Below are positions 2,509 to 48,513 of a stretch of DNA of 64,000 bases, piece by piece. The notes under the pieces are model-generated. The model saw nothing but the letters and a program-made list of their open reading frames with translations, did no database searches and was not told where the DNA came from. This stretch comes from Trypanosoma brucei (lineage: Eukaryota). Location of the stretch: contig CM000207.1 of NCBI GenBank assembly GCA_000002445.1, forward strand, positions 1,024,001 to 1,088,000. Direction: 5' to 3'. Within the stretch, counting starts at the first letter, position 1; each line of letters opens with the position of its first letter. The translations under genes were made by a program, and so were the position numbers.

Positions 2509-4689
2509 ATGGGCAGTGATAGTAAATCTAGTAAGTCCAAGGACAAGAACTTCTCATCAAAGGGTAAAATTGAGAAGTATAACAAGGATGGTACCGAAAC
2601 AATTTTGATCATGGGGCGTCCCTTTCGTATTGTGCAGAGGTTAAGTGAGAAGGTGCTTAACCCGGAGGCGAAAAGCTCGAAGAAAAGCAGCAAGAAAGCT
2701 AAGGATGTGTACTCCTACATTGTGGTTGTTGAAAACATTGAAGCTTTACCAATGTTTGCCAGGTATGTCGTTGTGAAGCGTACCTTTTTCAAGATAGACG
2801 AGGTGTTGTTGGCTCATCGGGAGCCTGAGATTTTGAATCGCGTTCGCGATAAGGGAATCCTGCACGTGTTCCACAGTGAAGTAACACGGAATGATGGGCG
2901 TTTGGGAACAACCGTGGCGATGGAGTACTGCCCCGGAAGTTTGGAACAGCGCCTGCAGCAGGAGACTCGGATGTTAGAAAGTGAAGTGGTACAAGTGTTG
3001 CTAGCGCTGGCTAGTGTGTTGGGTTACTTGCACTCTAGGCAGCCCCCGGTTGCACACCGTAACATTAATCCAAGCAATGTGTTAATTCACTCGGAGTCGG
3101 CAGGAGCGAGCGCATACCGCCTCTACAACTTTAGAAGTGCCATGACGGAGGCGTACCACTGCGAGAACCACGAGGAGGTAGTGGCGGCCATGGAAGACTT
3201 TGCCCGCTACACCACGGCAGGGTACCGGGCGCCTGAAATGTTAGACCCAAGTAGTCACAAGCGTATTGATGAACAGGTAGATATGTGGGCTCTTGGTGTG
3301 CTGCTGTACTACACAATGTACCAGCGCCTGCCCTTCACGGATGCATGCTGGGGGCTGGCAAGAAAACCCAAGTTACGCTACCCCGTGGAAGCTGAAGTGT
3401 GGTACACGGGCTCACTACGCATCGTGCTTGAGCATCTTCTTGAACCAGATCCGGAGAAGAGGTGGGATGCGTTTGCTCTCATCAACTTCATGCGTTTCGA
3501 CAATGACCTATGCAGACACATTGGACCCTTCTGCTTCTCGCAGACTGAGCGGCCCGAGGGATGGGAACCGCAGGACGTGAAGGTAATTGGCCGCCCAGTT
3601 CCAGCCAAAGTTCTCCCGGAGAGGTTGCGAAATACTGGCCAGTCCGACGATCCGGCTGCTGCAGCGCGTGACAACAGGGACGAAGCGGCTGCCACCTCCG
3701 TCAAGAGCCGCACAGCGGCACAGGAGTCTGGAGATAATGATCAAATGGTTCTCAAGGCAGTAACTGCGCTGAGTTCAGATACCGCTTCCACAGATCCCGA
3801 GGTGCTAGCCTACCGTGAAAAGCTCATTCGTGAACAGGAGGAGGCATGGCAAGTGGCAGAAAGCGCACACAAAAAGCGGGATAAGGAAGACAAGGATGGG
3901 GCGACCTCTGGACCGGCAGATGTTGATTCATTGTTTGGTCCAACTGAAAAGAAGGAAGCTGTCAAGGAAAACAAGGCATCTGCTATTGACGACTTATTTG
4001 GTGGCATGGAGACACAACCATCACAGTCTCAAAAACCAACAACGGATGACCTCTTTGGAGGCGCCTCTACAGCTACTGCGAGCAACCAAATCCCACCCCA
4101 GGGGTCCCAAGTTGGAGCTAACGACAGTTGGAAGGATGATCTCTTCGCTGCGCCACCTCAGCAACCACAAATGCAACCTCAACCGGCCTTTCCAATGGCA
4201 GCTGACAGTAGTTGGAGCACCGGAGCACCAACATCGGTGCCAATGAATCCAACCGGCGGCATGATGGGTCAACAACAGGCCCCCATGGGATGGGGAAATG
4301 GAGTAACAGCTCCGGGTTTCCAACCAATGCAAACTCCACAAATGCAACAACAAGTTCCTGGTGGATGGGGAAATGGAGCAACAGCTTCGGGTTTCCAACC
4401 AATGCAAACTCCACAAATGCAACAACAAGTTCCTGGTGGATGGGGAAATGGAGCAACAGCTCCGAGTTTCCAACCAATGCAAACTCCACAAATGCAACAA
4501 CAAGTTCCTGGTGGATGGGGAAATGGAGCAACAGCTCCGGGTTTCCAACCAATGCAAACTCCACAAATGCAACAACAAGTTCCTGGTGGTGCCCCCGGTT
4601 TCATGGGCGGAAACGACCTATTCCAAAGGCCACAGCAGCAACAGCCACAGCAACCAGAGAAGGACCCCTTCGCCAGTCTCTTCAAGTAA
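2509..4689 (+). CDS. AAK1/NAK-family (Ark/Prk-like) kinase homologue, predicted catalytically inactive, with a C-terminal DxLF motif region and Q/P-rich 25-aa tandem repeats
   Basis: ATG at 2509. Collinear matches to AAK1: AMEYCPGS (cf. LMEYCRAG), YRAPEM, DMWALGVLLY, LLEPDPEKRWDAF. The catalytic HRD is HRN (3055-3063) and DFG is NFR (3127-3135). Four DxLF motifs lie between 3924 and 4149. Confidence 0.85.
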   Translation: MGSDSKSSKSKDKNFSSKGKIEKYNKDGTETILIMGRPFRIVQRLSEKVLNPEAKSSKKSSKKAKDVYSYIVVVENIEALPMFARYVVVKRTFFKIDEVLLAHREPEILNRVRDKGILHVFHSEVTRNDGRLGTTVAMEYCPGSLEQRLQQETRMLESEVVQVLLALASVLGYLHSRQPPVAHRNINPSNVLIHSESAGASAYRLYNFRSAMTEAYHCENHEEVVAAMEDFARYTTAGYRAPEMLDPSSHKRIDEQVDMWALGVLLYYTMYQRLPFTDACWGLARKPKLRYPVEAEVWYTGSLRIVLEHLLEPDPEKRWDAFALINFMRFDNDLCRHIGPFCFSQTERPEGWEPQDVKVIGRPVPAKVLPERLRNTGQSDDPAAAARDNRDEAAATSVKSRTAAQESGDNDQMVLKAVTALSSDTASTDPEVLAYREKLIREQEEAWQVAESAHKKRDKEDKDGATSGPADVDSLFGPTEKKEAVKENKASAIDDLFGGMETQPSQSQKPTTDDLFGGASTATASNQIPPQGSQVGANDSWKDDLFAAPPQQPQMQPQPAFPMAADSSWSTGAPTSVPMNPTGGMMGQQQAPMGWGNGVTAPGFQPMQTPQMQQQVPGGWGNGATASGFQPMQTPQMQQQVPGGWGNGATAPSFQPMQTPQMQQQVPGGWGNGATAPGFQPMQTPQMQQQVPGGAPGFMGGNDLFQRPQQQQPQQPEKDPFASLFK
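4288..4587. repeat. Four near-identical 75-bp tandem repeats (25-aa unit GWGNGATAPGFQPMQTPQMQQQVPG) plus a partial fifth, inside the kinase-like CDS
   Basis: The W codon TGG recurs at 4291, 4366, 4441 and 4516, a period of exactly 75 nt. Copies differ by 1-2 nt (V/A, P/S substitutions). Confidence 0.95.
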
Positions 4690-4745
4690 TGTTTTACATG
4701 ACTGCAATACTGGCACAGAACAGCATCATACGTCACCCCCCCCCC

Positions 4746-4771
4746 AAAAAAAAAGGGGGGGTTAGTTGGGG
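4746..4771. repeat. Abutting homopolymer runs C10-A9-G7 just 3' of the kinase-like gene
   Basis: Direct reading: cccccccccc aaaaaaaaa ggggggg. Confidence 0.9.
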
Positions 4772-5406
4772 TACATTTTTTCTTAACAAAAAAAAAGAGA
4801 AAGGTAAAAGAAATAAAGAAATACCAACTAACAATTAAGAGAAGGAAAGGAACCCGCAGGTCATACCCTCTTTATTCCACCTCTCTTTCCTTCTGTTTTG
4901 TTCTGTTCGGTGTTTAAACCTGATTCAACATGTTCAATTTTCTGCTGTGTCTCCCCATTCTCAATCACATCCACCTCTTTTTTTATTTTTATTTTTAGTA
5001 TCAGTGTTTCATTTTTTTTTCTTTTTTCGTTTATCATCACTTTATTATTATTATTATTACGTCCCTCCGTTGTTTGTGCTTTTTGATATACTTGCTAATG
5101 CTTTGAAGTGTGTGAGGGGAAGGGGAGGAGGGAGAGAAAAAAGAAAAAATGAAGAGGGGAGGGGAGGGGGATTTATCAAGAGAGAACAAACAAAAGGAAA
5201 GAAACGGTTTTGTTTTCTTTTTGAGAAAATAAATAAATAATGAATAACATATGTTTTATCATAACCTCCATTTGCGGATTCCAATGAAGGGCGTGGCAAA
5301 ATCCATAAGGAAGAGGGTTGTGCGCATGTGTTTCTTTTTATTATTATTATTTGCTTACGTTCATAAAAAGTAGAGGAATGGAATGGAAAGAGATGGGAAG
5401 TGGAGG

Positions 5407-9613: not shown

Positions 9614-11782
9614 ATGGTTCGTGTGAAGGAAAAGGCTCGGAAGGGTGACGATGCGTTCAAGACACGGAAACAAAAAGTCGGGCGGAAAAAACTCGCCCCG
9701 GCAACAGCCACACGGGCGGAGGTACACGCCCGCACACTTCGCGTAACGACACCAACAGCAATCACTCGAGGGATTCTCGAGAGCGAGGCCGTAAGAACGG
9801 GGGAGAACTGCCAAACTCATAAAGGTGAGAAAGAAAAACGTGTGGTGTCGGCGGACCAATTACACCGAGACTTTAAGGAACATCTTGCGGGCACGAGGCA
9901 TTACAAAAAGGTGGTTCGGTCCACATCCTTCGCATCACTCACGAGGGCCGTCGCTGGGCACTTCTCAGCGGTCGGAAGGGCGGATGACTCATCAGCAATG
10001 GGGAATGAAACGCAACTGAGCCCATTGGAGATTTTGTACGCCTACACGGGAGCACTCGATGCCATGACGGACACTGATGATGACGTCCGACGCGCAGCTT
10101 TGGGCACGTTGAAGGTCATTTTGTATCGACGCAAGCCGGCAGCACAAATCGATGAGCAGGGGAGTGGTGCCATGGAGGCCGGTGGCGGTTCCGCTACGGC
10201 GTTTAACGTGGACCAGGCACGCGCCGCTTTGCGTGTTGTGGATGTAACATTAACCCATGCAATGGTGTCGGTGCGGCGGTCTGGAGTGGAACTGTTACAA
10301 CTCATCTTACAGGTGCAACCACTCAGCGTTAGGGCAGTGTTGAGTGAATCAACCACATGGGTGAAAATGGCAGGTCGTATCTCCAGCATCGTTCTGCCCA
10401 GCACGAGTAACGGAAGCGGCAACAGTCCATCGACAAAAATGTTTCATGTGGTTGCTGACCTACTCGAAACAATGATACCTCTGCATCGAAGTGAGAGTGA
10501 TGCGTGGAATCAGGGGTGCCCGCGAGCGCGACATGCTGTGGATGAAGTGGTTGACAAACAAGGCGAAAGTAACGTATCACTCTCTGCTTTGGTTGCTCAA
10601 TTTTTTGATGAGTGCAGTCCTCGGTGGTGTGTGGCATGGAAGGAACTCATGGAGTTGCGCGCTGCATTATTCCGTGATGTGGAATGGGTGAGACACGCTA
10701 CAGCGCTGGCACGTGCGTTTGCCTGCTGTGCGATGTACCTGTGGGACCATCGCCTGCTTGGCCGAAAGAACTCGCGGCTCATGCACCACCTCTTCACTGT
10801 CAAAGTACCCTTCACTATGCATGAACTGATTGCTCCCAGAGACCCCACTGCAGAAAGCGGTTGTGGGGTTGGTAATGGCAGTAAATGGCGCGTTGAATTA
10901 GCCAACGCCATAGCCAACGCTTGTCTTCCACTCGCCGCCGCAAATGATGACACCTGGGAAGTGTTGCATAACTTCCTCTCGATTAGTTTTCACTGTGCAA
11001 AGGATTCGGACTCCTCAGATGGGACGTCTTCCGCTGGTGAAAGCGGTAAATCCAGGCGTGCTACCCAACTTGTTGGGCCCGTGCGTACTCTGCGAACAGC
11101 GGTGGTACGCCTTCATCAGGCTTTACTTCCACGTTTGCTTCCGATTGCATCACCCCTTCTTCAAATAGTTATGCAAGCGACTAATCTGAGTGACAGTAGC
11201 GAAACAGATCGGTTGGCGTTAGTAGACGTGCTGCTGATGTCGGCGGATGTGTTTTCTTCATTTGTAACCTCGCAAGTCGCCGTGCAAAATCCTCAGAACA
11301 TCCGATACCTTCGTGACGTCGTTTTGGTGGTTCCTCGTTTTTTTTTCGCCCTGCGCGGTCTCCAGATGGAAGCCGCCTGCCTCGACCGCATCGTCTTCTC
11401 TTTCCTGTATCCGTTGTGGAGGGTGGTAAGCAGCGGTCATCCGCTACTGTCTTCACCAATGCCAAACAAATTACCAGGCGGCGCGCCGTCTTCCCCACAG
11501 GTTAATAAAGAAAACAAGCAAAAGATAACAGCTTTGCAACTGCTCGCTCGTTCCTTAACGTCCCTGTTTGAGATTCGCGTACCTGACAGTGGCGGTGAAG
11601 GCACATGCAGATCTGTTGCAGGTGTTCTGCAGCGTTGTAGCGACAGGACGGTGGAGTTAGCAGTGCACACATTGTTTTATGTGGGCGCGACGGTGCCGCC
11701 CACGAGCTGGACACGTGAAAACAATGTACTTTCCCTTCCAACACTCGTGGACACTTTGCCGCGACCCGGTGTTTGTGCGTGA
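9614..11782 (+). CDS. Hypothetical 722-aa protein; the basic N-terminus is weakly reminiscent of the Ipi1/TEX10 N-terminal region (Rix1-complex component)
   Basis: ATG at 9614. N-terminus MVRVKEKARKGDDAFKTRKQKVGRKKLAP resembles the K-rich ...DF.K.KLKVGK... start of Ipi1/TEX10. The rest is predicted helical. The resemblance is weak. Confidence 0.75.
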   Translation: MVRVKEKARKGDDAFKTRKQKVGRKKLAPATATRAEVHARTLRVTTPTAITRGILESEAVRTGENCQTHKGEKEKRVVSADQLHRDFKEHLAGTRHYKKVVRSTSFASLTRAVAGHFSAVGRADDSSAMGNETQLSPLEILYAYTGALDAMTDTDDDVRRAALGTLKVILYRRKPAAQIDEQGSGAMEAGGGSATAFNVDQARAALRVVDVTLTHAMVSVRRSGVELLQLILQVQPLSVRAVLSESTTWVKMAGRISSIVLPSTSNGSGNSPSTKMFHVVADLLETMIPLHRSESDAWNQGCPRARHAVDEVVDKQGESNVSLSALVAQFFDECSPRWCVAWKELMELRAALFRDVEWVRHATALARAFACCAMYLWDHRLLGRKNSRLMHHLFTVKVPFTMHELIAPRDPTAESGCGVGNGSKWRVELANAIANACLPLAAANDDTWEVLHNFLSISFHCAKDSDSSDGTSSAGESGKSRRATQLVGPVRTLRTAVVRLHQALLPRLLPIASPLLQIVMQATNLSDSSETDRLALVDVLLMSADVFSSFVTSQVAVQNPQNIRYLRDVVLVVPRFFFALRGLQMEAACLDRIVFSFLYPLWRVVSSGHPLLSSPMPNKLPGGAPSSPQVNKENKQKITALQLLARSLTSLFEIRVPDSGGEGTCRSVAGVLQRCSDRTVELAVHTLFYVGATVPPTSWTRENNVLSLPTLVDTLPRPGVCA

Positions 11783-13569: not shown

Positions 13570-14976
13570 ATGAAGACTGTAATTTCCACTGCTTTTGCAC
13601 GCGTTGGTGAGCTTGCTTGTCAGCAGGATTCATTCCTGCGTGAGATAACCGCTCGTGTCGTATCCTGCGAGGCTGCCGCTGTGAACAGAAACAATAGTGG
13701 TGCCTCCGGTAAAAAGAGCAAAAGTAGCGGTACACAAGTGGAGCTGCCGCAAAGCTACGACGTGATACTCACCGACTCTGTTCTGTTTCCCGACGGTGGT
13801 GGGCAACCGTGCGACCATGGTGTTCTTATCCGGCGAGAAACAAACGAGGAACTGCCGGTCCGTGTGGTTCAGCGGCGAGGTGATTCGTGTGTGATGAATT
13901 TGCCGTGCATGCTCAAAGTCGGTGAGGACGTCCAACTCCGGGTTGACTGGGACCGCCGTCTCGACCACATGCAGCACCACTCCGCGCAGCATTTGTTGAC
14001 TGCTGTCGTTGAAGACCCCAGTTTCTGTGGTTTGCCAACAGTGTCGTGGGCGCTAACGCAGCCATACTGTCATATCGTTCTTCCAACAGGAAAAAGGATT
14101 GAGCCTGAGATGTTGCAGCGAATCGAAGAGCACTGCAATCGTGTCATTGCGCGGGCGGTTCCTGTACGGTGCAGAGTATACAGCAGCAAAGAGGAGTATG
14201 AAAACGACTTGCAGAGGGAGCCGGAGAAAAATGACGACGGAGGAAGGCTGCGCGGCTCGCGACCCATTCCTCCAGATGTTGCGGGGCCCATTCGTATAAT
14301 TGATATGGAGGGTATTGACTGTTGCACTTGTTGTGGCACTCACGTCACCAACTTGGCGCAGTTGCAAGTATTGAAGCTCCTACACCAAGAAACCAAAGGA
14401 GATACACTGAAACTGTTCTTCATTGCAGGTGAACGCGTGAGGCGTTTCTTCGGCGACATGTATGGTCGCGAGAGGGAGCTAATGAAAGAAATGGGTGGCA
14501 TACGGCCTGAAGATTTCGTTTCGGCAGCCATTCGAAAGGGAAAAGACTTCGTGGAGCTGGAGAAACGATTGAAGCACATGACTCAAGAGCTTATGAAACT
14601 GCGGAGCGAGAAACTTATCGCAGAGGCAAAACAGTTGTCAGAAAACGGGAAGGGTGACAGTGCCAGTCACAGGCCTCCTGTTGTCGTTTACCGTCGCGAT
14701 GATGTTGACGCAGATTTCTTCAGCGGACTTCGGGATGAACTGCGACAAGCGTGTCCCAACTGTGTCGGTGTCTTTGCTTGGGCAATGGCTCCTCTAACCG
14801 CAGCCAAAACGGGGCAATTTATGATTGTTGGCCCAACTGAAAGTGTAGAGGTTTTGGCGCCGGTTGTGTGTGCAGCTCTCGAGGGTAAGGGAGGCATGTC
14901 GAAGTTTGGCTACCGTGGAAAGGGAAGCCTTTGCGCTTGGGAAGATCTCGTGAAGGAGTTGACTTCCAAGGGGTAA
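13570..14976 (+). CDS. AlaX / AARSD1-like protein (alanyl-tRNA synthetase editing-domain homologue, tRNA_SAD)
   Basis: ATG at 13570. HxxxH motif (HHSAQHLL) and CxxxH motif (CCTCCGTHV), characteristic of Ala/Thr-tRNA synthetase editing domains. A DGGGQPCDHG Gly-rich motif lies N-terminal to them. Confidence 0.8.
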   Translation: MKTVISTAFARVGELACQQDSFLREITARVVSCEAAAVNRNNSGASGKKSKSSGTQVELPQSYDVILTDSVLFPDGGGQPCDHGVLIRRETNEELPVRVVQRRGDSCVMNLPCMLKVGEDVQLRVDWDRRLDHMQHHSAQHLLTAVVEDPSFCGLPTVSWALTQPYCHIVLPTGKRIEPEMLQRIEEHCNRVIARAVPVRCRVYSSKEEYENDLQREPEKNDDGGRLRGSRPIPPDVAGPIRIIDMEGIDCCTCCGTHVTNLAQLQVLKLLHQETKGDTLKLFFIAGERVRRFFGDMYGRERELMKEMGGIRPEDFVSAAIRKGKDFVELEKRLKHMTQELMKLRSEKLIAEAKQLSENGKGDSASHRPPVVVYRRDDVDADFFSGLRDELRQACPNCVGVFAWAMAPLTAAKTGQFMIVGPTESVEVLAPVVCAALEGKGGMSKFGYRGKGSLCAWEDLVKELTSKG

Positions 14977-17613: not shown

Positions 17614-20600
17614 ATGAAGAGGTGCCGCGCTTACTTTGTCGGGGAGGTTGCGCTCACCGGGGTCGGTGCTTTTCAGGGACGGTGGTGCCAGCCGGCATGC
17701 AAGTCGCAGTTGCAAAGCACGCAGAAACAAGGACGACCCGATGGCCTTACGGTGTCGTTGATGCGCTTATCGGCGTCACAGCGGCGCACGGCCTCCGTAG
17801 CATATGCCCACGGAAATGAAGAGCGACAACTGCTCCCAACGAGTTACAAGAATGTTGCAGCACCGCGCCTCCTGCACGTACTCTTGCTGAAGTGCCGGCA
17901 GAAGACCGCCAAGCCGTCCATTTTGGATGTTGAAGCTGTACCGGAAGTCTCCATGCTAGCAGGTGCGCAGCGAGACGCGGACGAGTCCGGTGGAAAATGG
18001 CATGCGGCTTTCCGGTTGTTCAGTGAAGCGATACAGCGCCGCGGAGTGCTACCCAACATTGCTCACATTAATGTGCTGCTTGGAATTACTGTACGTGAGC
18101 GCCGTTGGCCGCAAAAGGCGGAAGTGGAAAAATTTGTCGAACGGTTCCTTGAAGCCGCGGAGTGCATGGGTGACGAAAGGAAAGAGTATCTGGCGGAGCA
18201 GTTGCAAACGGGTGCTAAAGGCAATGAATGCACTGTGGATGATGTATCCATCCAGCAACTGATTACGGCTATGCGACCGACAGCAGAGACGTACGAATGG
18301 CTCATGGAGGCCGCCGTAAGACAGCGAGACTGGGAAGCGGCACTCACATACTTCGGCGACGCACGTGCTGCGTGCCTACCAATTAGTGACCTCTCACTTC
18401 GTTTGTCCCTTCGCGCCTATCGAATTGCTGGCGTGCACTCAATCTTCAAGACGACCAAAAGAGATCGGCGCGCAGTGCAAATGATGTCACTCCGCACGGA
18501 TCAAAGAGGGCCTGCACTCCGATCCTCGGCGGCGCCGGCGTCACTGCGCGGTGTGGCTAACGCAGTGCGAGTGGAATCGGAGGATGTGCGGTATGTGTGG
18601 CAAGCTGCCCTCTCACTGTTTGAGTCCTACAAGCATCGTGTGCATGAGGGACAGACGATAGGGCTCTTTATGACGATGATGACGGAGGCCGGGCAGTACC
18701 AACAGGTTATTCGTACGCACTCTGAATGTCATCGTACCCTTATTGTCGATGAAGATGTACTCCTTACTGTGAGCAGGGCAGCACGAGAACTTGGTGACTG
18801 GGTTTTGAGCCTGCGTTTGCTCGAGGAAAGCAGTGCAAAAGCTTCAGGGCTGCCGCAATCGATACTGGAAAACACCGTGCATACCTTGCGACGGACCGGA
18901 CACTACAGGGAGATACTGCTACTTCATGCGCAGCTTCCGCCCATATTCTGGTCTGCTGGGGCCTATGTAGTTCTCGCTCAAGCCGCGGTAGTGCAACGGG
19001 AGCTGCCCTTGCTCCTATCGCTTCTTACGGACGAAGAAGACAGATATGAAGACGCACAAATGCCACACGATGTGGATACTGCAGCTCATACATCGTTACA
19101 ACGAAATCTTTCTTTCAACGTTACAACCGCTGCGTCGATGTGTACAGGAAGGCAAAAGCAAACACCGCTGGAAATGTTTGACGTGGCCCTACGGGCCATT
19201 CAGGTTGAGCTCATTCATCGTCGGTGCAAACGTGCTGGCGATTCTAGTACCAGTACAGGTAGCGGAAGCATTGGCACGGGCAGCGGCAACTGCCAAGCAG
19301 GGTCGGTGACGCCACGATACGATTCCGTGGCAAGTCTCGCCTCGCTCTCTGTTGCTATCTACGAAAAGTTCCTGCATGTGTCAACACGTCAACTGAAGAA
19401 GTGGGAGCGCGACAATTGGCCCTCCGGCTCCACATTGACTATCTATGCGCCACTTTTAAAGCTTCTTGCTGTACCGCTCTGTGAAAATCATACCGTTGTT
19501 TCCACTAACAAGAACGTGCGCGGCTCCCCCTGCGCCCCTTGGGAAGTGGCCCTCGCGCATGTGGCATTGATCAGGAGGCCTGACGCTCCGCTAATATGCC
19601 TTGCCGCCCACCTACTGCAGCGGTATCAGCAATGGGAGGCAGCCTTCAAGTTGCTGTCCCACGTGGAGCACAACGACGAGTTGGCTCAGTCTGCCGCTTT
19701 TAAATTACGTTGTGCTCTGCAACTGGGGCCGTCTCGGGCGTCGGCATCAGTGGAGCCATCAAGTTATCGTTGCACGATCATTTCCGCCACCTCCGTCCGT
19801 TATGCCGTGTTAAGCGCCGCCGCCCACCGACCAGCTGCGGCGCTCCATCTCGTACAGTATGCACTGGCACACAGCTGGATCGACAGTGGTATGGCGTTGC
19901 AGCTGCTGCAGCACATACAACGCAATATGAAAGAACCGGTGCAGCGCCGCACTGGCGGCAGACAAGCGACAGCGTCGAATTCCCACATTGGCATGATCGG
20001 CGGTGAAACCGATAGCTACACTCTATCATGTGATGCTATCGTTTTTTTCAAAGAATTTGTTTCTCTTTGGAGCCAGCAGAGTTGTGTGGTGGCCCCACTT
20101 GCACCTCTCTTCAATGAGATATTAATATTCCTGCAGCGTGGACCTCATACGGACCCATCAATATCGTCGTTCACTGCTTTATGTGGTTCAATAGCAAACG
20201 TCCTCCGTCGACTCTCCACCGAATGGAAAGTGGAGCAACACGCTGATGTGGAGCTGGCGCTGGTTGCAGCGGTCCACGCAACTGTGCACCACGTGGGGGC
20301 TTCTACGTTGAGCCGACGAGCTCTCTGGTCGGAGTGTCTGTGTCTCGTTCAGCTCTTCCACAGTCCACTCATTCGTCGAACCTATACCGTAGGAGTACTG
20401 GAGGTAAATGAGGCAACATTTCGTGTGCTCCGTACGTTTATATCAAATTGTAATCGGTCTGAGGAGGCGTTTGTGGAGGGTATCGCGTTTCAGTGGTTGC
20501 TGCCAGGGAAAGTACTGGAACTTCCTCAACTGGAAGAAATTTTTAGGGCACCAGGTGGCCTCACAAGCGCTGCAAATGCTTCGGTGTGGTGGTCGTTGGG

Positions 20601-23600
20601 GTTGTTGCTGTATTCACTCGTATGGGCAAGTCGGCTCCGCTCGAAAGAACTCGTGCGGCACTTTGTTGGAGTGCTGCTACCGCTGCTTCAGCGGCTTTTG
20701 CAGAATGAAGGGAATTGTACTATCATAAGTACTAGTGTTTCCCCAAGCGAAATTAGGTCAGATGGGCTGGCGGCTGCCGTTGTTGCTGTGCAGTGCCTGA
20801 CAAGCGGCGCACACGAAGAGGTGCTACATGACTGGCCCCACGTATATGAGCTGCTTTCAACGCTTCTCCAAGTGCCTGAACTGACTGCAACGGAGAAGGG
20901 AGAAGGGAATGATGTAAGTACCTTAGCAGATGTGTTGGGCGCAGTTCTCGACAAGTTGCGTCGCTCATTTCATTTCCTGATAAGGGGTGTTTCACTCAAT
21001 AAAGGTTACCGCACACACTGTCCGAAAGGTCCTACCACGCCGGCTAGTGACCGTGTAAAGGAACATGGAACCGCGGAAGGAAATAGTTCCGGGGAAGTGG
21101 TAGAAAGGAGTGCGTTTGTTTTTCTGGACATCTGTGAGGAGTTAACAAAGCGCCTCTCAGTTGGAACTAATGGCGAACGGCTTGTGCGAAACGGAATCAC
21201 ATCCTGCTTGGATAAAGTGATGAACTGTATTTGGGATGTCGGCTATGCTTTATTTGTGTGGCGCACACTTTTCAGTGGGTATCCAAATCAAGTAAACGCC
21301 AAGGTGCTGCAGCAGTTGCAAAGTCGGTACCACAGGGCCTTGTACATGCAAATGTTGCACCTTCCTGTACAGCATACAACTCCGTCCATACTGGAACGCT
21401 GGTTGGTTGTGATGAGTGGCTGTGGCCGAAATGGTGGAACGACAAGGACACATGAAGAGTCGCACGAAAATAGGTTGTGTGCTGCAATAATAAATGACAT
21501 TACAACCCTGGACGCATGGGCAAGTTGCCGTTCGTTGCCACACGAACCGGGTGCGCATGGACGCGAGTCTCGGGGAAGGGAACCATTGCTAATTGTTCCG
21601 ATGGTTCTGAGAGTAATAAATTCAATTACGCAAGCTGCGATGAAGCGGTTCTCACAGTGCAAGTTGTCCCACACGAAAACGTGCTCCAAATCATGGAGTG
21701 GTCTTCTGCAACTCGGTGGTGGCCGAGACGTGCATTCTCTTTTTGAAGATCACCTTCTGGTTACCACCATACAGCAACTACAAACCTTGCAGGAGGCGGG
21801 GTCTGCATTGGTATATATGATGCTCTGTGAAGGGAATACAGAAGTGTTGCAAATGGCGCCACAGATTATGTCGTGGTACTTTTGCCCCCGAAACGTTATG
21901 CATGCAGTTGTGCACAGCATGCATTCCGCTTCCCCAGATGTGCTGAAGCCTCTGTGGAAACCAGAGGTTCTCGTGGCTGCTTTTGAAGCACTGGGTGTGC
22001 AGAGTCGAATGCATGCAGCGGAGGGAATCTCTCCACCACGACTTTGCGTGGGGAGTCAGGCATCCCTCCTTTTGTCCTTGTTAACAAGTTCGTCAGTTGT
22101 CCGTGCAGTGGCGCGCATGGATGAAGAGGTCATAATCGCAGCCTTATTGTCACTTGAGGCTGCGGATCTTGAGCGTAGCGATAATGCGCAGCAGACTGCA
22201 CACCAGCTGCTAGTTGCATTTCCAAAGATACTGGAGAGGCAACTGGTACCAATGCTGCTGAGGGGTCATCTTGGGGAGACACAACTGCACGCACTCGATG
22301 TCATCGTGGAACGCACGGCGTCGGAGGTACGTAAGGGATCCGGCACTTGCAGTCCAGCACTCACTCGGGGTGCAGCCATGTGGATGCTGCTGCGCAGACC
22401 TAGCGAAAACCGTGGGGCACGAGCCGACGGATATGACGGTTTGGTGGAGTCCATAACTATGGAGGAAAGAATATTTTGCAATATAATGATTTTTTGTGGA
22501 TCACAGTTTGAGGTTAACAGCTGTCGAGCGGGTGCTGTGCAGACGCAGCAGCGAAAACGAAAGCAACCGGCACCAAGAGAAATGCGTGCTCGTAATCAGT
22601 TTATCCCTTACGCACTTGAGTGGGAGCAAGCGCTCAAGTTACTCACTGATGCCAACAAGGTTGAGCTATCAGATGTTGTGGACGTAAATGGCGCCTTCCT
22701 TGACGTCATAGAAATGTATGGTGCCTGCGTACCGATGGCATGGAAAGTGGGTTTCGCGAAAGAGCTACTGTCACACGAAGCCGGTTGTGACGATCGTCAC
22801 AAAGGCGAAGTCTTACCTAAAGTCCTTGTCCGCGACGTGGCAAGGGAACTCTTACATTGTCGGTCGTTTGCACCGGGTCAACCCGTTGATGACAGGGAGC
22901 TGTATCGAGTTGGTTTGAAGATATGGTCCTCTCTTTCGACGCGGAGAGGGGCTCTTGTACAATCTCCACCAAGTGGTGTATGGAACTTAGTTTGGAGGAT
23001 TCTGAACGAGATGTTGAGAAACCGTTCGCCTGTGCATGGAAGACCTGCCGGACTTGCTGAGGTGAGTGTGCTCCCGTTCAGTCTTTGCGTGGTCGAGCGT
23101 GCGGTTACGCACATATTGCGCTGCGGTGTCCGCTGGTCATTATTGCCGGGAGAGAGGGAAGACATACCGACGGTGGCTGCCTCGCTATTGCTAATGCTGG
23201 AGCTGATAATCCCATGTCGATCCCTCCGTTTGGCGCTATTTGAGTCGGACAACATCACCCATGAAGAGGGCTCTGATGCCCCCGGTTGTGTCGCTGCCAT
23301 CACTTGTGAGGAAAATTCTACAGGGGAACATGCAGTGTGGTCCACCCTTCTCAGTTTTGAAGTGCTACTGTTAACGTTACCTGGGCTCTTAGATGGCAGC
23401 AGCGGAGCTGTCCCGAGCTGCGCCGCCGCCAAGGGCCAAAATGCTCTCGATGTCGTAACAACTCTGCCCAGGATGTTGCTCTACTTCGCGTGCCGCCATG
23501 TTTCGCACTTAACATCCCTCGGAGAGGATTCTGCTCGGGACCGGAGTGGTGCCGCGCAGGAGGAACTTGGCCGTTTGATAGAGCTCTGTGGCTGGCACAT

Positions 23601-25266
23601 CGCTTCTTTTTCCAGTGCTTTGCTAACTGACAGCATTAAAGGGGAGGCCCCATCCACGGGGAAGCGCTTGGTCCTTGAAACCGCCGTCAAGAACTTCGTT
23701 CGCGCGGCGCTACTTATGGGTACATGGCGGGACATCTATTGGTTAGCATTCCGCATACTTGCCTGCGTGAAAACACTATTTGCGCACGGAGGGCGAGCAT
23801 CAAAGCATCCTCAAATGTGGGGCTGGGTTGTTGGGCTGCTGCCGGCGATGGTCGTTGCCTCTGCGCGAACGAGCAGCAGCATTCAAGTCCAGGTTTCCAC
23901 TCTCATAAAGGAAGTCCCATTGGACCTTTTACGTTTGGTTCCCTACGGCGAGGTCCCTACGGTAAATGGGTTGGATAATGAAGAGGAGGTACGAATACGA
24001 CAGGGTGTTCTTTCTGTCCTCCTTAGGCAGGTGGAACAAAGCATTTGGTTGAAAACGGAGGAAGTGCTGCGGGAGCGCGGACGGTCCCTCGCCTTCGCGG
24101 ACCGCCTCTCAGCCGTCAAACCATTGGTTCAACTGGGTATGCATCTCGAGGTGTGGAAGGGCAATGGCGCACGAGCCAGTAGCTTCCTGGAGACGTTGCT
24201 GTTTTTCCTTTCGGAACGCCAATTTAAACTTTTGTGCGAAGCGTCGCGTGTGGAGAACAGAAGCAAAGCCTTGTCGGTGAGGGCGGTTTCTCCGTCTGAG
24301 CGGTTGCCGCAGAAACCAGAGATGACGTGGGAGGAAGCCCTCACACTCTTACTTCGGTCAAACAGAGCAGAATTCTGCAGTTTCTTGCAGAAATCTTCAT
24401 CTAGCAGTAAATCCACAACACCGAAGCTTCACGACGCGCTGTCTATTTTCAAATCTTCTCATATTTCGTGCTGCACACCATGGTGGGCGGCCATCACATT
24501 GTTTTGCAGGTCCGATGGACCACCCCATGTGATTCATGTGTTTCCTGCATTTTTTTCTGAACGAGTGATCGAGCGGTGTCCGTCTTGGAAGACGGCACTA
24601 CGAGCACTGCAGCATTCGTCATCAACAGTACCACACACCACGCGAGTGCAACAATACCTTGTGTACTTGATACTGCGACGATTGCGCACAGATCCCACAT
24701 GGGCGATAGAGGAAAGTTACACATCCGCTCCAACTAAACTATTGGGTGAGCACCTCTCCTGGCAAACCGCCTGCTGGTGCTACGATCAACTGGCACGGAA
24801 GGGTAAAGGAGCTCCGCCAATACAACAGCGGACGATGACTGAGTTGCTTCGCCACTGCGTGCTAAACCCAGAAGCGACACTGTCCATGTACGAGGTGTAC
24901 TGGGCCCAAGGGTACAATCGAGCAGAAGGTGTGAATTCTTTCCTCTCGCTTCTGCGAGCAGGACGCCGCGGCAACAGCGAAAAGTTGGTGCTACGCGCAA
25001 TGCGAGACTACATCAAACAGTGTGACGAGTGGAACGGCGCACAGTGCAACACACAGCGTCGCAAAATAAAGAGCCCTCCATTTACTGCCGAGGGAAACGC
25101 AACGCTGTGCCGTGCCTTCCTTAGTGTATGCTCTGGTGGAATTGTTTCACAGCAAGCCAGGACAGAGGTGGCGGCAGCATTGAAACAGCGAGGATGTATT
25201 GGCGAAGTGGAGGAGCTTCTCATCGTGTCCGGGTGCAGTGAAGGCGCGCGTCCGAGGGACACGTAA
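17614..25266 (+). CDS. Very large (2550 aa) hypothetical helical-repeat protein; the N-terminal third resembles PPR/TPR-like repeats and the N-terminus is Arg/Ser-rich (possible organellar presequence)
   Basis: ATG at 17614, 7.65-kb uninterrupted ORF. Segments such as WHAAFRLFSEAIQRRGVLPNIAHINVLL and ETYEWLMEAAVRQRDWEAALTYFGDA look like 35-aa helical hairpin repeats. All overlapping antisense ORFs are short. Confidence 0.85.
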   Translation: MKRCRAYFVGEVALTGVGAFQGRWCQPACKSQLQSTQKQGRPDGLTVSLMRLSASQRRTASVAYAHGNEERQLLPTSYKNVAAPRLLHVLLLKCRQKTAKPSILDVEAVPEVSMLAGAQRDADESGGKWHAAFRLFSEAIQRRGVLPNIAHINVLLGITVRERRWPQKAEVEKFVERFLEAAECMGDERKEYLAEQLQTGAKGNECTVDDVSIQQLITAMRPTAETYEWLMEAAVRQRDWEAALTYFGDARAACLPISDLSLRLSLRAYRIAGVHSIFKTTKRDRRAVQMMSLRTDQRGPALRSSAAPASLRGVANAVRVESEDVRYVWQAALSLFESYKHRVHEGQTIGLFMTMMTEAGQYQQVIRTHSECHRTLIVDEDVLLTVSRAARELGDWVLSLRLLEESSAKASGLPQSILENTVHTLRRTGHYREILLLHAQLPPIFWSAGAYVVLAQAAVVQRELPLLLSLLTDEEDRYEDAQMPHDVDTAAHTSLQRNLSFNVTTAASMCTGRQKQTPLEMFDVALRAIQVELIHRRCKRAGDSSTSTGSGSIGTGSGNCQAGSVTPRYDSVASLASLSVAIYEKFLHVSTRQLKKWERDNWPSGSTLTIYAPLLKLLAVPLCENHTVVSTNKNVRGSPCAPWEVALAHVALIRRPDAPLICLAAHLLQRYQQWEAAFKLLSHVEHNDELAQSAAFKLRCALQLGPSRASASVEPSSYRCTIISATSVRYAVLSAAAHRPAAALHLVQYALAHSWIDSGMALQLLQHIQRNMKEPVQRRTGGRQATASNSHIGMIGGETDSYTLSCDAIVFFKEFVSLWSQQSCVVAPLAPLFNEILIFLQRGPHTDPSISSFTALCGSIANVLRRLSTEWKVEQHADVELALVAAVHATVHHVGASTLSRRALWSECLCLVQLFHSPLIRRTYTVGVLEVNEATFRVLRTFISNCNRSEEAFVEGIAFQWLLPGKVLELPQLEEIFRAPGGLTSAANASVWWSLGLLLYSLVWASRLRSKELVRHFVGVLLPLLQRLLQNEGNCTIISTSVSPSEIRSDGLAAAVVAVQCLTSGAHEEVLHDWPHVYELLSTLLQVPELTATEKGEGNDVSTLADVLGAVLDKLRRSFHFLIRGVSLNKGYRTHCPKGPTTPASDRVKEHGTAEGNSSGEVVERSAFVFLDICEELTKRLSVGTNGERLVRNGITSCLDKVMNCIWDVGYALFVWRTLFSGYPNQVNAKVLQQLQSRYHRALYMQMLHLPVQHTTPSILERWLVVMSGCGRNGGTTRTHEESHENRLCAAIINDITTLDAWASCRSLPHEPGAHGRESRGREPLLIVPMVLRVINSITQAAMKRFSQCKLSHTKTCSKSWSGLLQLGGGRDVHSLFEDHLLVTTIQQLQTLQEAGSALVYMMLCEGNTEVLQMAPQIMSWYFCPRNVMHAVVHSMHSASPDVLKPLWKPEVLVAAFEALGVQSRMHAAEGISPPRLCVGSQASLLLSLLTSSSVVRAVARMDEEVIIAALLSLEAADLERSDNAQQTAHQLLVAFPKILERQLVPMLLRGHLGETQLHALDVIVERTASEVRKGSGTCSPALTRGAAMWMLLRRPSENRGARADGYDGLVESITMEERIFCNIMIFCGSQFEVNSCRAGAVQTQQRKRKQPAPREMRARNQFIPYALEWEQALKLLTDANKVELSDVVDVNGAFLDVIEMYGACVPMAWKVGFAKELLSHEAGCDDRHKGEVLPKVLVRDVARELLHCRSFAPGQPVDDRELYRVGLKIWSSLSTRRGALVQSPPSGVWNLVWRILNEMLRNRSPVHGRPAGLAEVSVLPFSLCVVERAVTHILRCGVRWSLLPGEREDIPTVAASLLLMLELIIPCRSLRLALFESDNITHEEGSDAPGCVAAITCEENSTGEHAVWSTLLSFEVLLLTLPGLLDGSSGAVPSCAAAKGQNALDVVTTLPRMLLYFACRHVSHLTSLGEDSARDRSGAAQEELGRLIELCGWHIASFSSALLTDSIKGEAPSTGKRLVLETAVKNFVRAALLMGTWRDIYWLAFRILACVKTLFAHGGRASKHPQMWGWVVGLLPAMVVASARTSSSIQVQVSTLIKEVPLDLLRLVPYGEVPTVNGLDNEEEVRIRQGVLSVLLRQVEQSIWLKTEEVLRERGRSLAFADRLSAVKPLVQLGMHLEVWKGNGARASSFLETLLFFLSERQFKLLCEASRVENRSKALSVRAVSPSERLPQKPEMTWEEALTLLLRSNRAEFCSFLQKSSSSSKSTTPKLHDALSIFKSSHISCCTPWWAAITLFCRSDGPPHVIHVFPAFFSERVIERCPSWKTALRALQHSSSTVPHTTRVQQYLVYLILRRLRTDPTWAIEESYTSAPTKLLGEHLSWQTACWCYDQLARKGKGAPPIQQRTMTELLRHCVLNPEATLSMYEVYWAQGYNRAEGVNSFLSLLRAGRRGNSEKLVLRAMRDYIKQCDEWNGAQCNTQRRKIKSPPFTAEGNATLCRAFLSVCSGGIVSQQARTEVAAALKQRGCIGEVEELLIVSGCSEGARPRDT

Positions 25267-30042: not shown

Positions 30043-30278
30043 GTTCAATAGGCAAACACGCAAGTGCACCCGCAGCAATCGATAAAAGAGTTTTCGGTTC
30101 CCCACCGAAACAGCGGTGTTTTGCACCGTGGTTTCAGAGGCAAAGAATATTTGTGATCTCGCAACCGATTCTCCCTTTTTTTATTAATTCCGTTAGTCCC
30201 TACGCGTGCATTCATTCAGACCTAAAGGCACAAGTCTACAACAGTCGGCAAAAAGGAAGAATCGGCGACGGCAGCATT

Positions 30279-31295
30279 ATGCTGGCTGATGGATTTCGCT
30301 TCGCGTTTTCCGGTGACGTGGAGGAATCAATTCAGACCACGTCGGCAACACACACCCTTCCTTCTCAAGGGGTGTCAAAATCCGAGAAACGGATACCTCT
30401 GTTAGAGGCGCCAGTGCACAACCTTACCCGACGGTTGCTCGACGAGTGGTGTGAACCCTGCCGTCAGGACGCGCAGGAGCTGGTGGAGTTGCACTGCAGT
30501 GAGTCAACCACTGCCCCACAACTTACACACCAGCGCCCACCACGTGCAACGGAGTTGACGTCATTCGACGGGAAAGAACATCGGGATATCATCCCCGGCA
30601 AATACTACGGAGGGCTGAAAATTTGGTCCTGTGCACCCTATCTTGTGGAGTATATGTTCAACAACAGAAGCACATTCAAAGATTTCCTTCTTGGTGCCGC
30701 AGAACCGCTGGATTCCGAACGTGTGCCGAACGCTGGCGGCGGCTGTCGCCATACAATAGTTGTAGAGCTTGGTTGTGGTCAAGGTCTGCCGGGCATCGCA
30801 GCCCTTTTACTTGGTGCACACCACGTGATTTTTCAGGATTACAATGAGGAGGTGCTGCAGCTCTGCGTGAAGCCTAATGTGGGAATGAATTTGCTGCGCC
30901 ATATCGACACAGCAGGCGTATGTCGCGCTTGCGAATCTTGCTCTCCTGTCGTCCAGTTGGTGGCAGGTGACTGGGACGATATGTGTTGGCGGGACCATAC
31001 TACCGGTGAAGGCGTGGTTGTTACCGACGATCGCCGGATACTTGTCCTTGGAAGTGATGTGACCTTTGATGAGGAGGCGTGCTACAAACTCGCGCGGCTT
31101 CTGCGACGCATGTTGTCCACATCGGGTGGGGCTGCGTACATTGCGAGCAAACAGTATTACTTCGGAACTAACGGCGGCGTTGTCGAATTCAAGCGGTGTT
31201 GCGCCGAGGTTGAGCTGCAAGTGTTGGAAGTGGACTCAGCGGGAACAGGAGGGGGATTGCAGCGTGTCATTTTACGAGTCGAATGCAAAAGGTAA
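30279..31295 (+). CDS. Class I SAM-dependent methyltransferase, Methyltransf_16 family (putative protein-lysine methyltransferase, METTL21/FAM86-like)
   Basis: The ORF track starts at a GTG (30153); the first ATG is at 30279, after a polyY + 'cattcag'. VVELGCGQGLPGIAALLLGAHHVIFQDYNEEVL matches family-16 motif I / post-I. Confidence 0.8.
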   Translation: MLADGFRFAFSGDVEESIQTTSATHTLPSQGVSKSEKRIPLLEAPVHNLTRRLLDEWCEPCRQDAQELVELHCSESTTAPQLTHQRPPRATELTSFDGKEHRDIIPGKYYGGLKIWSCAPYLVEYMFNNRSTFKDFLLGAAEPLDSERVPNAGGGCRHTIVVELGCGQGLPGIAALLLGAHHVIFQDYNEEVLQLCVKPNVGMNLLRHIDTAGVCRACESCSPVVQLVAGDWDDMCWRDHTTGEGVVVTDDRRILVLGSDVTFDEEACYKLARLLRRMLSTSGGAAYIASKQYYFGTNGGVVEFKRCCAEVELQVLEVDSAGTGGGLQRVILRVECKR

Positions 31296-47730: not shown

Positions 47731-47768
47731 TGTATGTATGTATGTATGCATGCATGTATGTATGTATG

Positions 47769-47802
<34 letters not shown>

Positions 47803-47803
47803 G
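47731..47803. repeat. Compound (GTAT)n-(GCAT)2-(GTAT)n-(TA)n-(GT)n microsatellite
   Basis: tgtatgtatgtatgtatgcatgcatgtatgtatgtatgtatatatatatatatatatgtgtgtgtgtgtgtgg read directly. Confidence 0.9.

Positions 47804-48511: not shown

Positions 48512-48513
<2 letters not shown>

What the first reader, a model, noticed from the sequence alone, without database searches (positions are those of the whole stretch)
2509..4689. AAK1/NAK-family kinase homologue with both catalytic aspartates replaced (HRD to HRN, DFG to NFR): predicted pseudokinase
The kinase-domain alignment to AAK1 is unambiguous along its length (AMEYCPGS, YTTAGYRAPEM, DMWALGVLLY, LLEPDPEKRWDAF). The two universally conserved Asp residues, the catalytic base in HRD and the Mg-coordinating Asp of DFG, are both Asn/altered: HRN at 3055-3063 and NFR at 3127-3135. 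The Gly-rich loop is also unrecognisable. This suggests a scaffold role rather than phosphotransfer, in the AAK1-family context of endocytosis-associated kinases.
Basis: partly seen in the sequence, partly recalled or inferred. Interest (0 to 1): 0.7.

Follow-up and report, generated by a model that had tools for sequence, protein, structure and literature searches.

The report
Known Trypanosoma brucei AAK1-like pseudokinase

Summary
ORF 2509-4689 (+, 726 aa) encodes an N-terminal NAK/AAK1-type kinase domain with HRN (3055-3063) in place of HRD and NFR (3127-3135) in place of DFG. It also lacks the catalytic-loop Lys and has a 23-residue glycine-free loop where the Gly-rich loop should be. The beta3 Lys, alphaC Glu, catalytic-loop Asn and APE are retained.

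The interpretation (pseudokinase, scaffold role in endocytosis) is supported but not new. Twenty published primers for Tb927.9.6560/Tb427tmp.160.4770 all map onto this ORF and its flanks (16 exactly, four with 1-2 mismatches). GenBank XP_827022.1 (T. brucei TREU927) is 100% identical from Met35. The ORF mass (80,198 Da) equals the published 80.199 kDa. Manna 2017, the NRP1 paper (2022) and Black 2023 already describe the HRD/DFG/P-loop losses, clathrin binding, flagellar-pocket localisation and endocytic phenotypes.

My comparison of 31 relatives adds a modest refinement. Loss of the DFG Asp, loss or replacement of the catalytic-loop Lys and the Gly-loop insertion are shared by all trypanosomatid orthologues, including Leishmania and T. 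cruzi. The HRD Asp was lost patchily, probably several times. No biochemical test of activity or nucleotide binding appears in the two papers I searched for one (2022 NRP1, Black 2023).

Verdict: real, correctly read, already known.

The parts
2509..4689 (+). Complete ORF (726 aa + stop) = T. brucei Tb927.9.6560 (TbAAKL / TbNRP1 / TbAAK1L1)
   Evidence: ORF. Published primers map at 2028-2046, 2111-2129, 2419-2509, 2512-2595, 2639-2657, 2844-2863, 3390-3409, 3529-3552, 3966-3983, 4025-4055, 4073-4090, 4285-4302, 4609-4686, 4689-4763, 4954-4972 and 5052-5069. XP_827022.1 is 100% identical from Met35. MW 80198 Da matches the published 80.199 kDa.
2509..2610 (+). N-terminal 34 residues absent from the older GenBank gene model (which starts at Met35, nt 2611); residues 1-20 predicted disordered, K/S-rich
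   Evidence: P0008 aligns to query 35-380. Nett 2009 phosphosite numbers fit only after adding 34. The NRP1 V5-tag primer fuses the tag at codon 2. pLDDT<50 for residues 1-20.
2572..3513 (+). Pseudokinase domain (about residues 22-335), NAK/AAK1-type fold
   Evidence: Pfam Pkinase 102-324; AAK1 profile alignment covering the N-lobe; AlphaFold model with a confident core; Foldseek top 30 are AAK1, BIKE, STK16 and GAK.
2641..2709 (+). Glycine-free, Lys/Ser-rich 23-residue loop (res 45-67) replacing the Gly-rich (P-) loop
   Evidence: Motif table. Residues 48-66 have pLDDT<50 and lie between strands 37-44 and 68-75. The insertion is present in all trypanosomatid orthologues and absent from the canonical outgroup sequences.
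2776..2778 (+). Retained beta3 ('VAIK') lysine, K90 (AAG)
   Evidence: Invariant in 22/22 orthologues; aligned to ALKR of AAK1.
2821..2823 (+). Retained alphaC glutamate, E105 (GAG)
   Evidence: Invariant in 22/22 orthologues; aligned to the kREi Glu of AAK1.
3055..3078 (+). Catalytic loop HRNINPSN: HRD Asp replaced by Asn185, catalytic Lys replaced by Asn187, Asn190 retained
   Evidence: comparative table.
3124..3135 (+). Y-NFR in place of C-DFG: Mg-binding Asp replaced by Asn207, Gly by Arg209, preceding Cys by Tyr206
3169..3210 (+). Predicted helix (res 221-234) inside the activation segment, in the position of the NAK-family activation-segment C-terminal helix
   Evidence: DSSP on the model gives H221-234. 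It aligns to AAK1 'vnavedeikkytt'. That this helix is a NAK hallmark is from my own knowledge (Sorrell et al. 2016).
3229..3237 (+). Retained APE motif (res 241-243)
3484..3603 (+). Conserved post-kinase extension (res 326-365; invariant F327, F341, F343, P349, W352, Q355, R362), function unknown
   Evidence: Invariant columns; low model confidence.
3604..4686 (+). Q/A/P/G-rich, presumably disordered C-terminal half carrying short linear motifs: DLF at residues 495, 514, 544 and 703 (nt 3991-3999, 4048-4056, 4138-4146, 4615-4623) and a terminal KDPFASLFK (DPF nt 4663-4671)
   Evidence: Motif scan and composition. The terminal KDPFxDLF is conserved in all full-length trypanosomatid orthologues. 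Disorder and 'clathrin interaction motifs' are stated in PMC5399782 and PMC10952953.
4288..4589 (+). Four tandem 75-bp units encoding 25-aa GWGNGATAPGFQPMQTPQMQQQVPG repeats
   Evidence: TRF: period 75, 4.0 copies, 97% matches. Copy number is 2 in T. b. gambiense and 0 in T. congolense.
3643..3864 (+). Region holding the three published bloodstream-form phosphosites, re-numbered S379 (3643-3645), T419 (3763-3765), S452 (3862-3864)
   Evidence: Nett et al. 2009 (PMC2716717) list Ser345, Thr385 and Ser418 for Tb09.160.4770. Adding 34 gives S, T and S in the ORF.

Best explanation
The ORF is Trypanosoma brucei Tb927.9.6560, the only NAK-family (AAK1-like) protein of African trypanosomes. Its N-terminal half keeps the AAK1-type kinase fold but cannot carry out normal phosphotransfer. 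It lacks the catalytic base (HRD to HRN), the Mg-binding Asp (DFG to NFR), the catalytic-loop Lys and the Gly-rich loop. Its C-terminal half is a disordered tail with four DLF motifs and a conserved terminal DPFxxLF motif. The most likely mode of action is a non-catalytic adaptor or scaffold. The tail motifs tether it to clathrin and other coat components at the flagellar pocket and on endosomes. The folded pseudokinase domain serves as a protein-interaction module that supports efficient uptake and retention of surface-bound cargo. Shown: the sequence features, the fold, the gene's identity, and (from the literature) clathrin association, localisation and endocytic phenotypes. Inferred: the absence of catalysis, which motif binds which partner, and what the pseudokinase domain binds.
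For: Identity: 20 published primers map, 16 exactly and four with 1-2 mismatches; XP_827022.1 100% identical; mass; phosphosites. Catalytic residue losses. Fold retained and NAK-like. Purifying constraint on the domain: K90, E105, APE and 50 other positions invariant in 22 orthologues. Only 1 substitution in the 365-residue N-terminal half against 9 in the tail among T. brucei subspecies. Black 2023 reports predominantly negative selection. Tail motifs and the conserved terminal KDPFxDLF. Literature: clathrin co-isolation and co-localisation at the flagellar pocket (PMC5399782); transferrin uptake reduced by 38% and co-localisation with clathrin and Tf endosomes on knock-down (PMC9633767); null mutants viable with slow growth, swollen pocket and altered lectin uptake (PMC10952953).
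Against: No kinase or nucleotide-binding assay appears in the two papers I searched for one (PMC9633767, PMC10952953), so inactivity is a prediction. The beta3 Lys, alphaC Glu and catalytic-loop Asn are strictly conserved, which is compatible with residual nucleotide binding or unusual catalysis. HER3, which also has HRN, shows weak autophosphorylation (cited in PMC9633767). Phenotypes are inconsistent between studies: no RNAi phenotype in Manna 2017, growth arrest in the NRP1 paper, viable nulls in Black 2023. The binding partner of the DPF/DLF motifs in an organism without AP-2 is unknown.
Confidence: 0.8

Rival explanations
1. It is a pseudokinase that acts mainly as an allosteric regulator or nucleotide-sensing partner of one or more active kinases or phosphatases at the endocytic site, as KSR, STRAD or JAK JH2 domains do, rather than as a passive coat adaptor.
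For: The Lys-Glu pair and catalytic-loop Asn are invariant, suggesting a maintained active-like pocket or conformation. Knock-down changed phosphorylation of 202 polypeptides (62 down, 140 up; PMC9633767). The protein is itself phosphorylated at S379, T419 and S452 and becomes hyper-phosphorylated under AEE788 treatment.
Against: Phosphoproteome changes after knock-down can be indirect. No kinase partner has been identified. T. brucei has no second NAK paralogue to pair with (PMC10952953). The Gly-rich loop is replaced by a long disordered insertion, which argues against ordinary ATP binding.
Confidence: 0.12
2. It is still an active but atypical kinase that uses a non-canonical mechanism, as WNK, CASK or HER3 do.
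For: K90, E105, N190 and APE are retained. Asn can in principle ligate a metal. HER3 with HRN has weak activity (cited in PMC9633767).
Against: Four catalytic elements are lost together: HRD Asp, DFG Asp, catalytic-loop Lys and Gly-rich loop. D-to-N substitutions at either aspartate are the standard way to make kinase-dead mutants (general knowledge). Among orthologues the HRD position drifts to N or A, with the preceding His becoming Y or F in one clade, and the DFG Asp position is N, S or G. That is the pattern of a site no longer under catalytic constraint.
Confidence: 0.06
3. The substitutions are artefacts (sequencing error, frameshift) or the locus is a decaying pseudogene.
For: None found. 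D-to-N is a single G-to-A change at each aspartate codon.
Against: Identical HRN/NFR in three T. brucei subspecies assemblies, and NFR in T. congolense. There is an uninterrupted 726-codon ORF. Tagged protein of the expected size was detected by three laboratories, and phosphopeptides were observed. The domain is highly conserved.
Confidence: 0.01

Closest known systems
TbAAKL / TbNRP1 / TbAAK1L1 (Tb927.9.6560 = Tb427tmp.160.4770 = Tb09.160.4770), T. brucei
   Same: It is this gene. Published tagging, RNAi and knock-out primers from all three papers map onto the ORF and its flanks. GenBank XP_827022.1 is 100% identical from Met35. The three papers describe the same HRN / no-DFG / P-loop changes.
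   Different: Nothing in the sequence. The three names are not cross-referenced everywhere: the NRP1 paper contains neither 'Tb927' nor 'TbAAKL'. GenBank uses a model 34 residues shorter.
Human AAK1 and BIKE/BMP2K (NAK family; AP-2 mu2 Thr156 kinases)
   Same: Best sequence and fold match. Same architecture of N-terminal kinase domain plus long Q/P-rich disordered tail with DPF/DLF-type endocytic motifs. The helix within the activation segment is kept. Both associate with clathrin (PMC5399782).
   Different: AAK1 is an active kinase with canonical GxGxxG, HRDLK and DFG. This protein lacks all of these. Its presumed substrate complex AP-2 is absent from African trypanosomes (PMC5399782, PMC10952953). 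[quoted passage not shown]
SCYL1/SCYL2 (CVAK104) pseudokinases of coated-vesicle traffic
   Same: Functional analogy: a catalytically impaired kinase-like domain joined to regions that bind coat proteins, acting in vesicle traffic. The NRP1 paper cites SCYL2 as influencing clathrin vesicle transport; the rest is from my own knowledge.
   Different: A different kinase-like family (SCY1-like, with HEAT repeats). It did not appear among the top sequence or fold matches here. This is an analogy, not membership.
HER3/ErbB3 (HRN-type pseudokinase)
   Same: HRD-to-HRN replacement of the catalytic base (cited in PMC9633767).
   Different: HER3 keeps DFG and a Gly-rich loop, binds ATP and acts by allosteric heterodimerisation. 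It belongs to an unrelated receptor tyrosine kinase family.

Membership tests
Eukaryotic protein kinase-like superfamily (Pkinase fold) | Significant match to the Pkinase profile and a bilobal kinase fold | tested here: met
   Pfam PF00069 E=4.4e-23, 82.4 bits against a cut-off of 31.7. AlphaFold model with N-lobe strands, alphaC and a helical C-lobe. 1875 PDB kinase chains matched at E<=0.001.
NAK family (AAK1, BIKE, GAK, STK16) | Closest relatives by sequence are NAK kinases rather than other groups | tested here: met
   phmmer: AAK1 1.5e-24, BIKE 1.4e-21, GAK 1.6e-15, next family (MELK) 7e-15. Profile: AAK1 1.8e-46, BIKE 4.7e-46, GAK 4e-33, STK16 1.7e-22, next (MAPKAPK2) 4e-21. Black 2023 resolved NAK against Nek by phylogeny.
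NAK family (AAK1, BIKE, GAK, STK16) | Closest structural matches are NAK kinases, with a helix inside the activation segment (ASCH) | tested here: met
   Foldseek ranks 1-30 are exclusively AAK1, BIKE, STK16 and GAK. Helix 221-234 lies between NFR and APE. TM-scores are only 0.46-0.61 and the model is of moderate confidence (pLDDT 75), so this is supportive rather than strong.
Pseudokinase (operational definition) | Lacks at least one of the beta3 Lys, HRD Asp or DFG Asp | tested here: met
   HRD Asp replaced by N185 and DFG Asp by N207; the beta3 Lys K90 is retained.
Pseudokinase (functional definition) | No phosphotransfer activity | not testable with these tools
   Requires an in-vitro kinase assay. 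None is reported in the two papers I searched for one, PMC9633767 and PMC10952953.
AAK1 functional orthologue (AP-2 mu2 kinase) | Phosphorylates the AP-2 mu2 subunit and binds the AP-2 alpha appendage through DPF/WxxF motifs | not testable with these tools
   A single conserved C-terminal DPF is present. According to PMC5399782 and PMC10952953, African trypanosomes have no AP-2. I did not verify AP-2 absence here.
Kinetoplastid AAK1L1 orthogroup (Black 2023) | About 700 aa with a long C-terminal tail and terminal DPF; DFG Asp replaced by Asn; not the ~350-aa AAK1L2 type (HWD, PPE) | tested here: met
   726 aa, NFR, APE, terminal KDPFASLFK. Clusters with T. congolense (78% identical), T. cruzi, T. 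rangeli and T. theileri (61-62% identical) and Leishmania orthologues.

The most novel reading that the evidence does not exclude
The most novel reading not excluded is this. AAK1L1 was already catalytically crippled in the common ancestor of all trypanosomatids, through loss of the DFG Asp, loss or replacement of the catalytic-loop Lys and a ~20-residue insertion in the Gly-rich loop. That ancestor includes the lineages leading to AP-2-containing Leishmania and T. cruzi. Inactivation would then be unrelated to AP-2 loss in African trypanosomes. The HRD Asp would have decayed independently at least four or five times: in T. brucei (N) and T. congolense (A), in T. rangeli, in an unnamed trypanosome pair (P0177/P0180), in Phytomonas, and in an unnamed clade with Y/F-R-N. 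This refines Manna 2017 and conflicts with the statement in Black 2023 that Leishmania AAK1L1 'appear functional'. It remains an incremental evolutionary point about a known protein.
Probability: 0.6. Interest if true: 0.3.

Novelty: already known. Interest (0 to 1): 0.12.

Why it matters
African trypanosomes depend on very rapid clathrin-mediated endocytosis at the flagellar pocket, yet they lack the AP-2 adaptor. An AAK1 homologue that persists without its substrate complex and without catalytic residues is a good example of a kinase repurposed as a non-catalytic trafficking factor, and a possible parasite-specific vulnerability. That case has already been made in the literature (2017, 2022, 2023). 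This re-analysis adds only bookkeeping and a broader comparative table. The bookkeeping is that the three published names and the old Tb09.160.4770 phosphosites all belong to one gene, and that the GenBank model is 34 residues short. The table suggests the catalytic decay is older and more recurrent than stated.

Tried and rejected
(1) The first word-indexed homology search returned only 7 relatives and no Trypanosoma or Leishmania sequence, which briefly suggested an unsequenced organism. The exhaustive HMMER search and the profile search then recovered T. brucei itself and the named orthologues.

(2) The Nett 2009 phosphosites Ser345/Thr385/Ser418 did not fit the ORF, so I doubted the mapping Tb09.160.4770 = Tb927.9.6560. 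This was resolved by the 34-residue offset of the older Met35 gene model.

(3) Synteny test: the Pex16 gene upstream of the unnamed orthologue P0002 has no significant similarity to the window's upstream ORF, and Pfam finds no Pex16 there. Synteny therefore gave no support for that clade, and the organisms behind P0002-P0006, P0168, P0177, P0180, P0007 and P0012-16 remain unidentified (Logan/ENA/EukProt records without names).

(4) N-myristoylation of the MGS N-terminus was considered. Residue 6 is Lys rather than the favoured Ser/Thr, and N-terminally V5-tagged protein still localised to clathrin structures (PMC9633767), so I did not pursue it.

(5) The ORF-poor stretch at 37.5-51.7 kb was probed with tRNA, Rfam, tandem-repeat and Pfam scans and nothing was identified.

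(6) AAK1L2 identity of the short canonical relatives (P0012-P0017) was considered and rejected: they carry HRD and APE, not the HWD and PPE that Black 2023 describes for AAK1L2.
Full report

Yes. The window has an uninterrupted ATG-initiated ORF at 2509-4689 on the + strand, 726 aa.

- Its N-terminal half matches Pfam Pkinase (E=4.4e-23, residues 102-324).
- Among all solved structures it is closest to human AAK1 (E=1.5e-24), then BIKE/BMP2K, then GAK.
- With a profile of the orthologue family, the four human NAK kinases (AAK1, BIKE, GAK, STK16) head the list, and the alignment extends into the N-lobe.
- In these alignments HRN (residues 183-185, nt 3055-3063, CAC CGT AAC) lies under AAK1's HRD.
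- NFR (207-209, nt 3127-3135, AAC TTT AGA) lies under DFG.

Between strands beta1 and beta2 there is a 23-residue Lys/Ser-rich loop with no glycine. It is predicted to be disordered.

- The catalytic-loop Lys (HRDxK) is also lost (N187).
- The beta3 Lys (K90), alphaC Glu (E105), catalytic-loop Asn (N190) and APE are retained. K90 and E105 are invariant in 22 orthologues.

**2. What is it?**

It is Trypanosoma brucei brucei TREU927 gene Tb927.9.6560. The evidence:

- **Primers from Manna et al. 2017 (PMC5399782).** The 78-nt gene-specific part of their C-terminal tagging primer matches nt 4609-4686 exactly. Their 3'-UTR primer matches 4689-4763 with 2 mismatches. Their RNAi primers match 3529-3548 and 4036-4055.
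- **Primers from Black et al. 2023 (PMC10952953).** All ten tagging, knock-out and diagnostic primers map in and around the ORF in the expected order, nine exactly and one with a single mismatch.
- **Primers from the TbNRP1 paper (PMC9633767, Tb427tmp.160.4770).** The RNAi and V5-tagging primers also map here. An 84-nt primer matches codons 2-29 exactly. The three published names TbAAKL, TbNRP1 and TbAAK1L1 therefore denote one gene.
- **GenBank.** XP_827022.1 / EAN76692.1, 'protein kinase, putative [T. brucei brucei TREU927]', lies on a 3.06-Mb contig and is 100% identical from Met35 onward.
- **Mass.** The computed ORF mass of 80,198 Da equals the TriTrypDB value of 80.199 kDa quoted by Black 2023.
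- **Phosphosites.** The bloodstream-form phosphosites Ser345, Thr385 and Ser418 reported for Tb09.160.4770 (PMC2716717) did not fit at first. All three fit after adding the 34 residues missing from the older gene model, giving S379, T419 and S452.

**3. Anatomy**

- Residues 1-20 are disordered and K/S-rich.
- Residues ~22-335 form the pseudokinase domain. The AlphaFold model has mean pLDDT 75, with the core mostly 80-95. Residues 48-66 fall below 50. A helix at 221-234 lies between NFR and APE, where NAK kinases have their activation-segment C-terminal helix.
- Foldseek ranks 1-30 are exclusively AAK1, BIKE, STK16 and GAK.
- Residues 326-365 form a strongly conserved extension of unknown function.
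- The rest is a Q/A/P/G-rich tail. It carries DLF motifs at 495, 514, 544 and 703, four 25-aa GWGNG...QQQVPG repeats encoded by a 75-bp x 4 tandem array at 4288-4589, and a terminal KDPFASLFK.
- The terminal KDPFxDLF-type motif is conserved in every full-length trypanosomatid orthologue.

**4. How it most likely works**

- **Shown here:** loss of four catalytic elements with retention of the fold; strong conservation of the domain (53 invariant positions across 22 orthologues); only 1 substitution in the N-terminal 365 residues against 9 in the tail among T. brucei subspecies.
- **Shown in the literature:**
  - The protein co-purifies and co-localises with clathrin at the flagellar pocket (PMC5399782).
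  - Knock-down lowers transferrin uptake and alters the phosphoproteome (PMC9633767).
  - Null mutants are viable but grow slowly, have swollen pockets and take up lectins abnormally. The gene is under mainly negative selection (PMC10952953).
- **Inferred:** it is a non-catalytic adaptor or scaffold. The DLF/DPF tail tethers it to the clathrin coat, and the pseudokinase domain acts as a docking module.
- **Rivals:** an allosteric or nucleotide-sensing regulator of other kinases (12%), an atypical active kinase (6%), or an artefact or pseudogene (about 1%; refuted).
- **Untested:** neither the NRP1 paper nor Black 2023, the two I searched for this, reports a kinase or ATP-binding assay. Inactivity remains a prediction.

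**5. Are the substitutions lineage-wide?**

I tabulated 31 relatives.

- **Nearest non-trypanosomatid relatives** (unnamed metagenome or SRA assemblies: P0007, P0012-P0016) are canonical, with a short G-x-G loop, HRDxKxxN and CDFG.
- **All trypanosomatid AAK1L1 orthologues lack the DFG Asp.** It is Asn in most, Ser in L. martiniquensis and Gly in P0180.
- **All have lost or replaced the catalytic-loop Lys.** It is Arg in the Leishmania-like group and Angomonas, and other residues elsewhere.
- **All carry the basic Gly-loop insertion.**
- **The HRD Asp is kept** in Leishmania, Porcisia, Angomonas, T. cruzi, T. theileri and T. melophagium.
- **The HRD Asp is replaced** in:
  - T. brucei subspecies (N);
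  - T. congolense (A);
  - T. rangeli (N);
  - two unnamed trypanosome-like sequences (N, with the downstream Asn also lost);
  - Phytomonas Hart1 (N);
  - an unnamed clade of six sequences (Y/F-R-N).

On a neighbour-joining tree this implies several independent losses. The number rests on an unbootstrapped NJ tree and on parsimony, so it is an inference.

The published picture is similar but narrower. Manna 2017 noted D-x4-N mutations in AP-2-less trypanosomes and T. grayi, predating AP-2 loss. Black 2023 noted the DFG Asp-to-Asn change in all AAK1L1 and HRN in salivarians, but wrote that Leishmania AAK1L1 'appear functional'. My table makes that last statement doubtful. Some T. cruzi GenBank records are already annotated 'putative NAK family pseudokinase'.

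**6. Comparison with known systems and novelty**

It works like a coat-associated pseudokinase, analogous to SCYL2/CVAK104. By sequence and predicted fold it is a member of the NAK family and of the kinetoplastid AAK1L1 orthogroup. It meets the operational pseudokinase definition. The functional definition cannot be tested here.

The specific finding (an AAK1 homologue with HRN and no DFG, read as a pseudokinase acting in endocytosis) has been published for this exact gene. The novelty class is therefore 'already known', and interest is low.

Noticed in passing
window 2509-2610 (codons 1-34): GenBank XP_827022.1 (and the T. b. gambiense model) start at Met35. The ORF extends 34 codons further upstream to an ATG at 2509. 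The long N-terminus (MGSxxKxSKSKDK...) is shared with the T. b. equiperdum and T. congolense models, and the NRP1 authors tagged at this ATG. The 2009 phosphosite numbering (S345/T385/S418) uses the short model and must be shifted by +34.
   Followed up: yes
window 4288-4589: A 75-bp x 4 tandem array (97% matches) encodes 25-aa GWGNG..QQQVPG repeats. Copy number varies: 4 in TREU927 and T. b. equiperdum, 2 in T. b. gambiense, none in T. congolense. The 3' forward knock-out primer of Black 2023 matches all four units (4323, 4398, 4473, 4548).
   Followed up: partly
related proteins P0011 (Phytomonas Hart1), P0175 (T. rangeli), P0177/P0180, P0002-P0006 + P0168; loci L001-L003, L005: HRD Asp replacement is not confined to salivarian trypanosomes. 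It is also seen in Phytomonas (HRN), T. rangeli (HRN, whereas its relative T. cruzi keeps HRD), an unnamed pair with HRNICPEC (the catalytic-loop Asn is lost too), and an unnamed six-member clade with YRN/FRN. The source organisms of the unnamed Logan/EukProt sequences could not be identified. L001 has GC 0.455 and a Pex16 gene upstream, which is not syntenic with the window.
   Followed up: partly
window 3484-3603 and about 3778-3843 (residues 326-365 and ~424-445): Two segments outside the kinase core are strongly conserved across trypanosomatids. One is a post-kinase extension (invariant F327, F341, F343, P349, W352, Q355, R362). The other is a 'DDPxxAxYRxxIIxEQ' stretch in the otherwise variable tail. 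No function is assigned; they are candidate interaction modules.
   Followed up: no
window 37500-51700: About 14 kb has no ORF of 250 aa or more on either strand, despite coding-like GC (0.40-0.53). There are only 90-187-aa stop-free fragments hopping between frames. No tRNA, Rfam family, tandem repeat or Pfam domain was found, apart from a small RRM_1 ORF at 50966-51415. It could be a decayed element or pseudogene, or long UTRs. Unresolved.
   Followed up: partly
whole window: 15 of the 16 ORFs of 250 aa or more are on the + strand, consistent with one trypanosomatid polycistronic unit. Pfam hits on the neighbours: an AlaRS-editing-like protein (tRNA_SAD, 13570-14976), an FAD-binding protein (28255-30042), Methyltransf_16 (30153-31295), a PDEase_I cyclic-nucleotide phosphodiesterase (51750-53714), a Topo_C_assoc protein (57428-58579, probably the small subunit of the two-subunit topoisomerase IB) and a methyltransferase (62356-63186). 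A 2550-aa ORF (17614-25266) and a 722-aa ORF (9614-11782) have no Pfam domain.
   Followed up: partly
window 2509-2550: The N-terminus MGSDSKSSKSKDK (Gly2 followed by a basic/serine run) is shared with T. congolense (MGSSGKASKSKD) but not with other trypanosomatids (MKDKGFS...). It superficially resembles a myristoyl-plus-basic membrane signal, but residue 6 is Lys rather than the favoured Ser/Thr.
   Followed up: no
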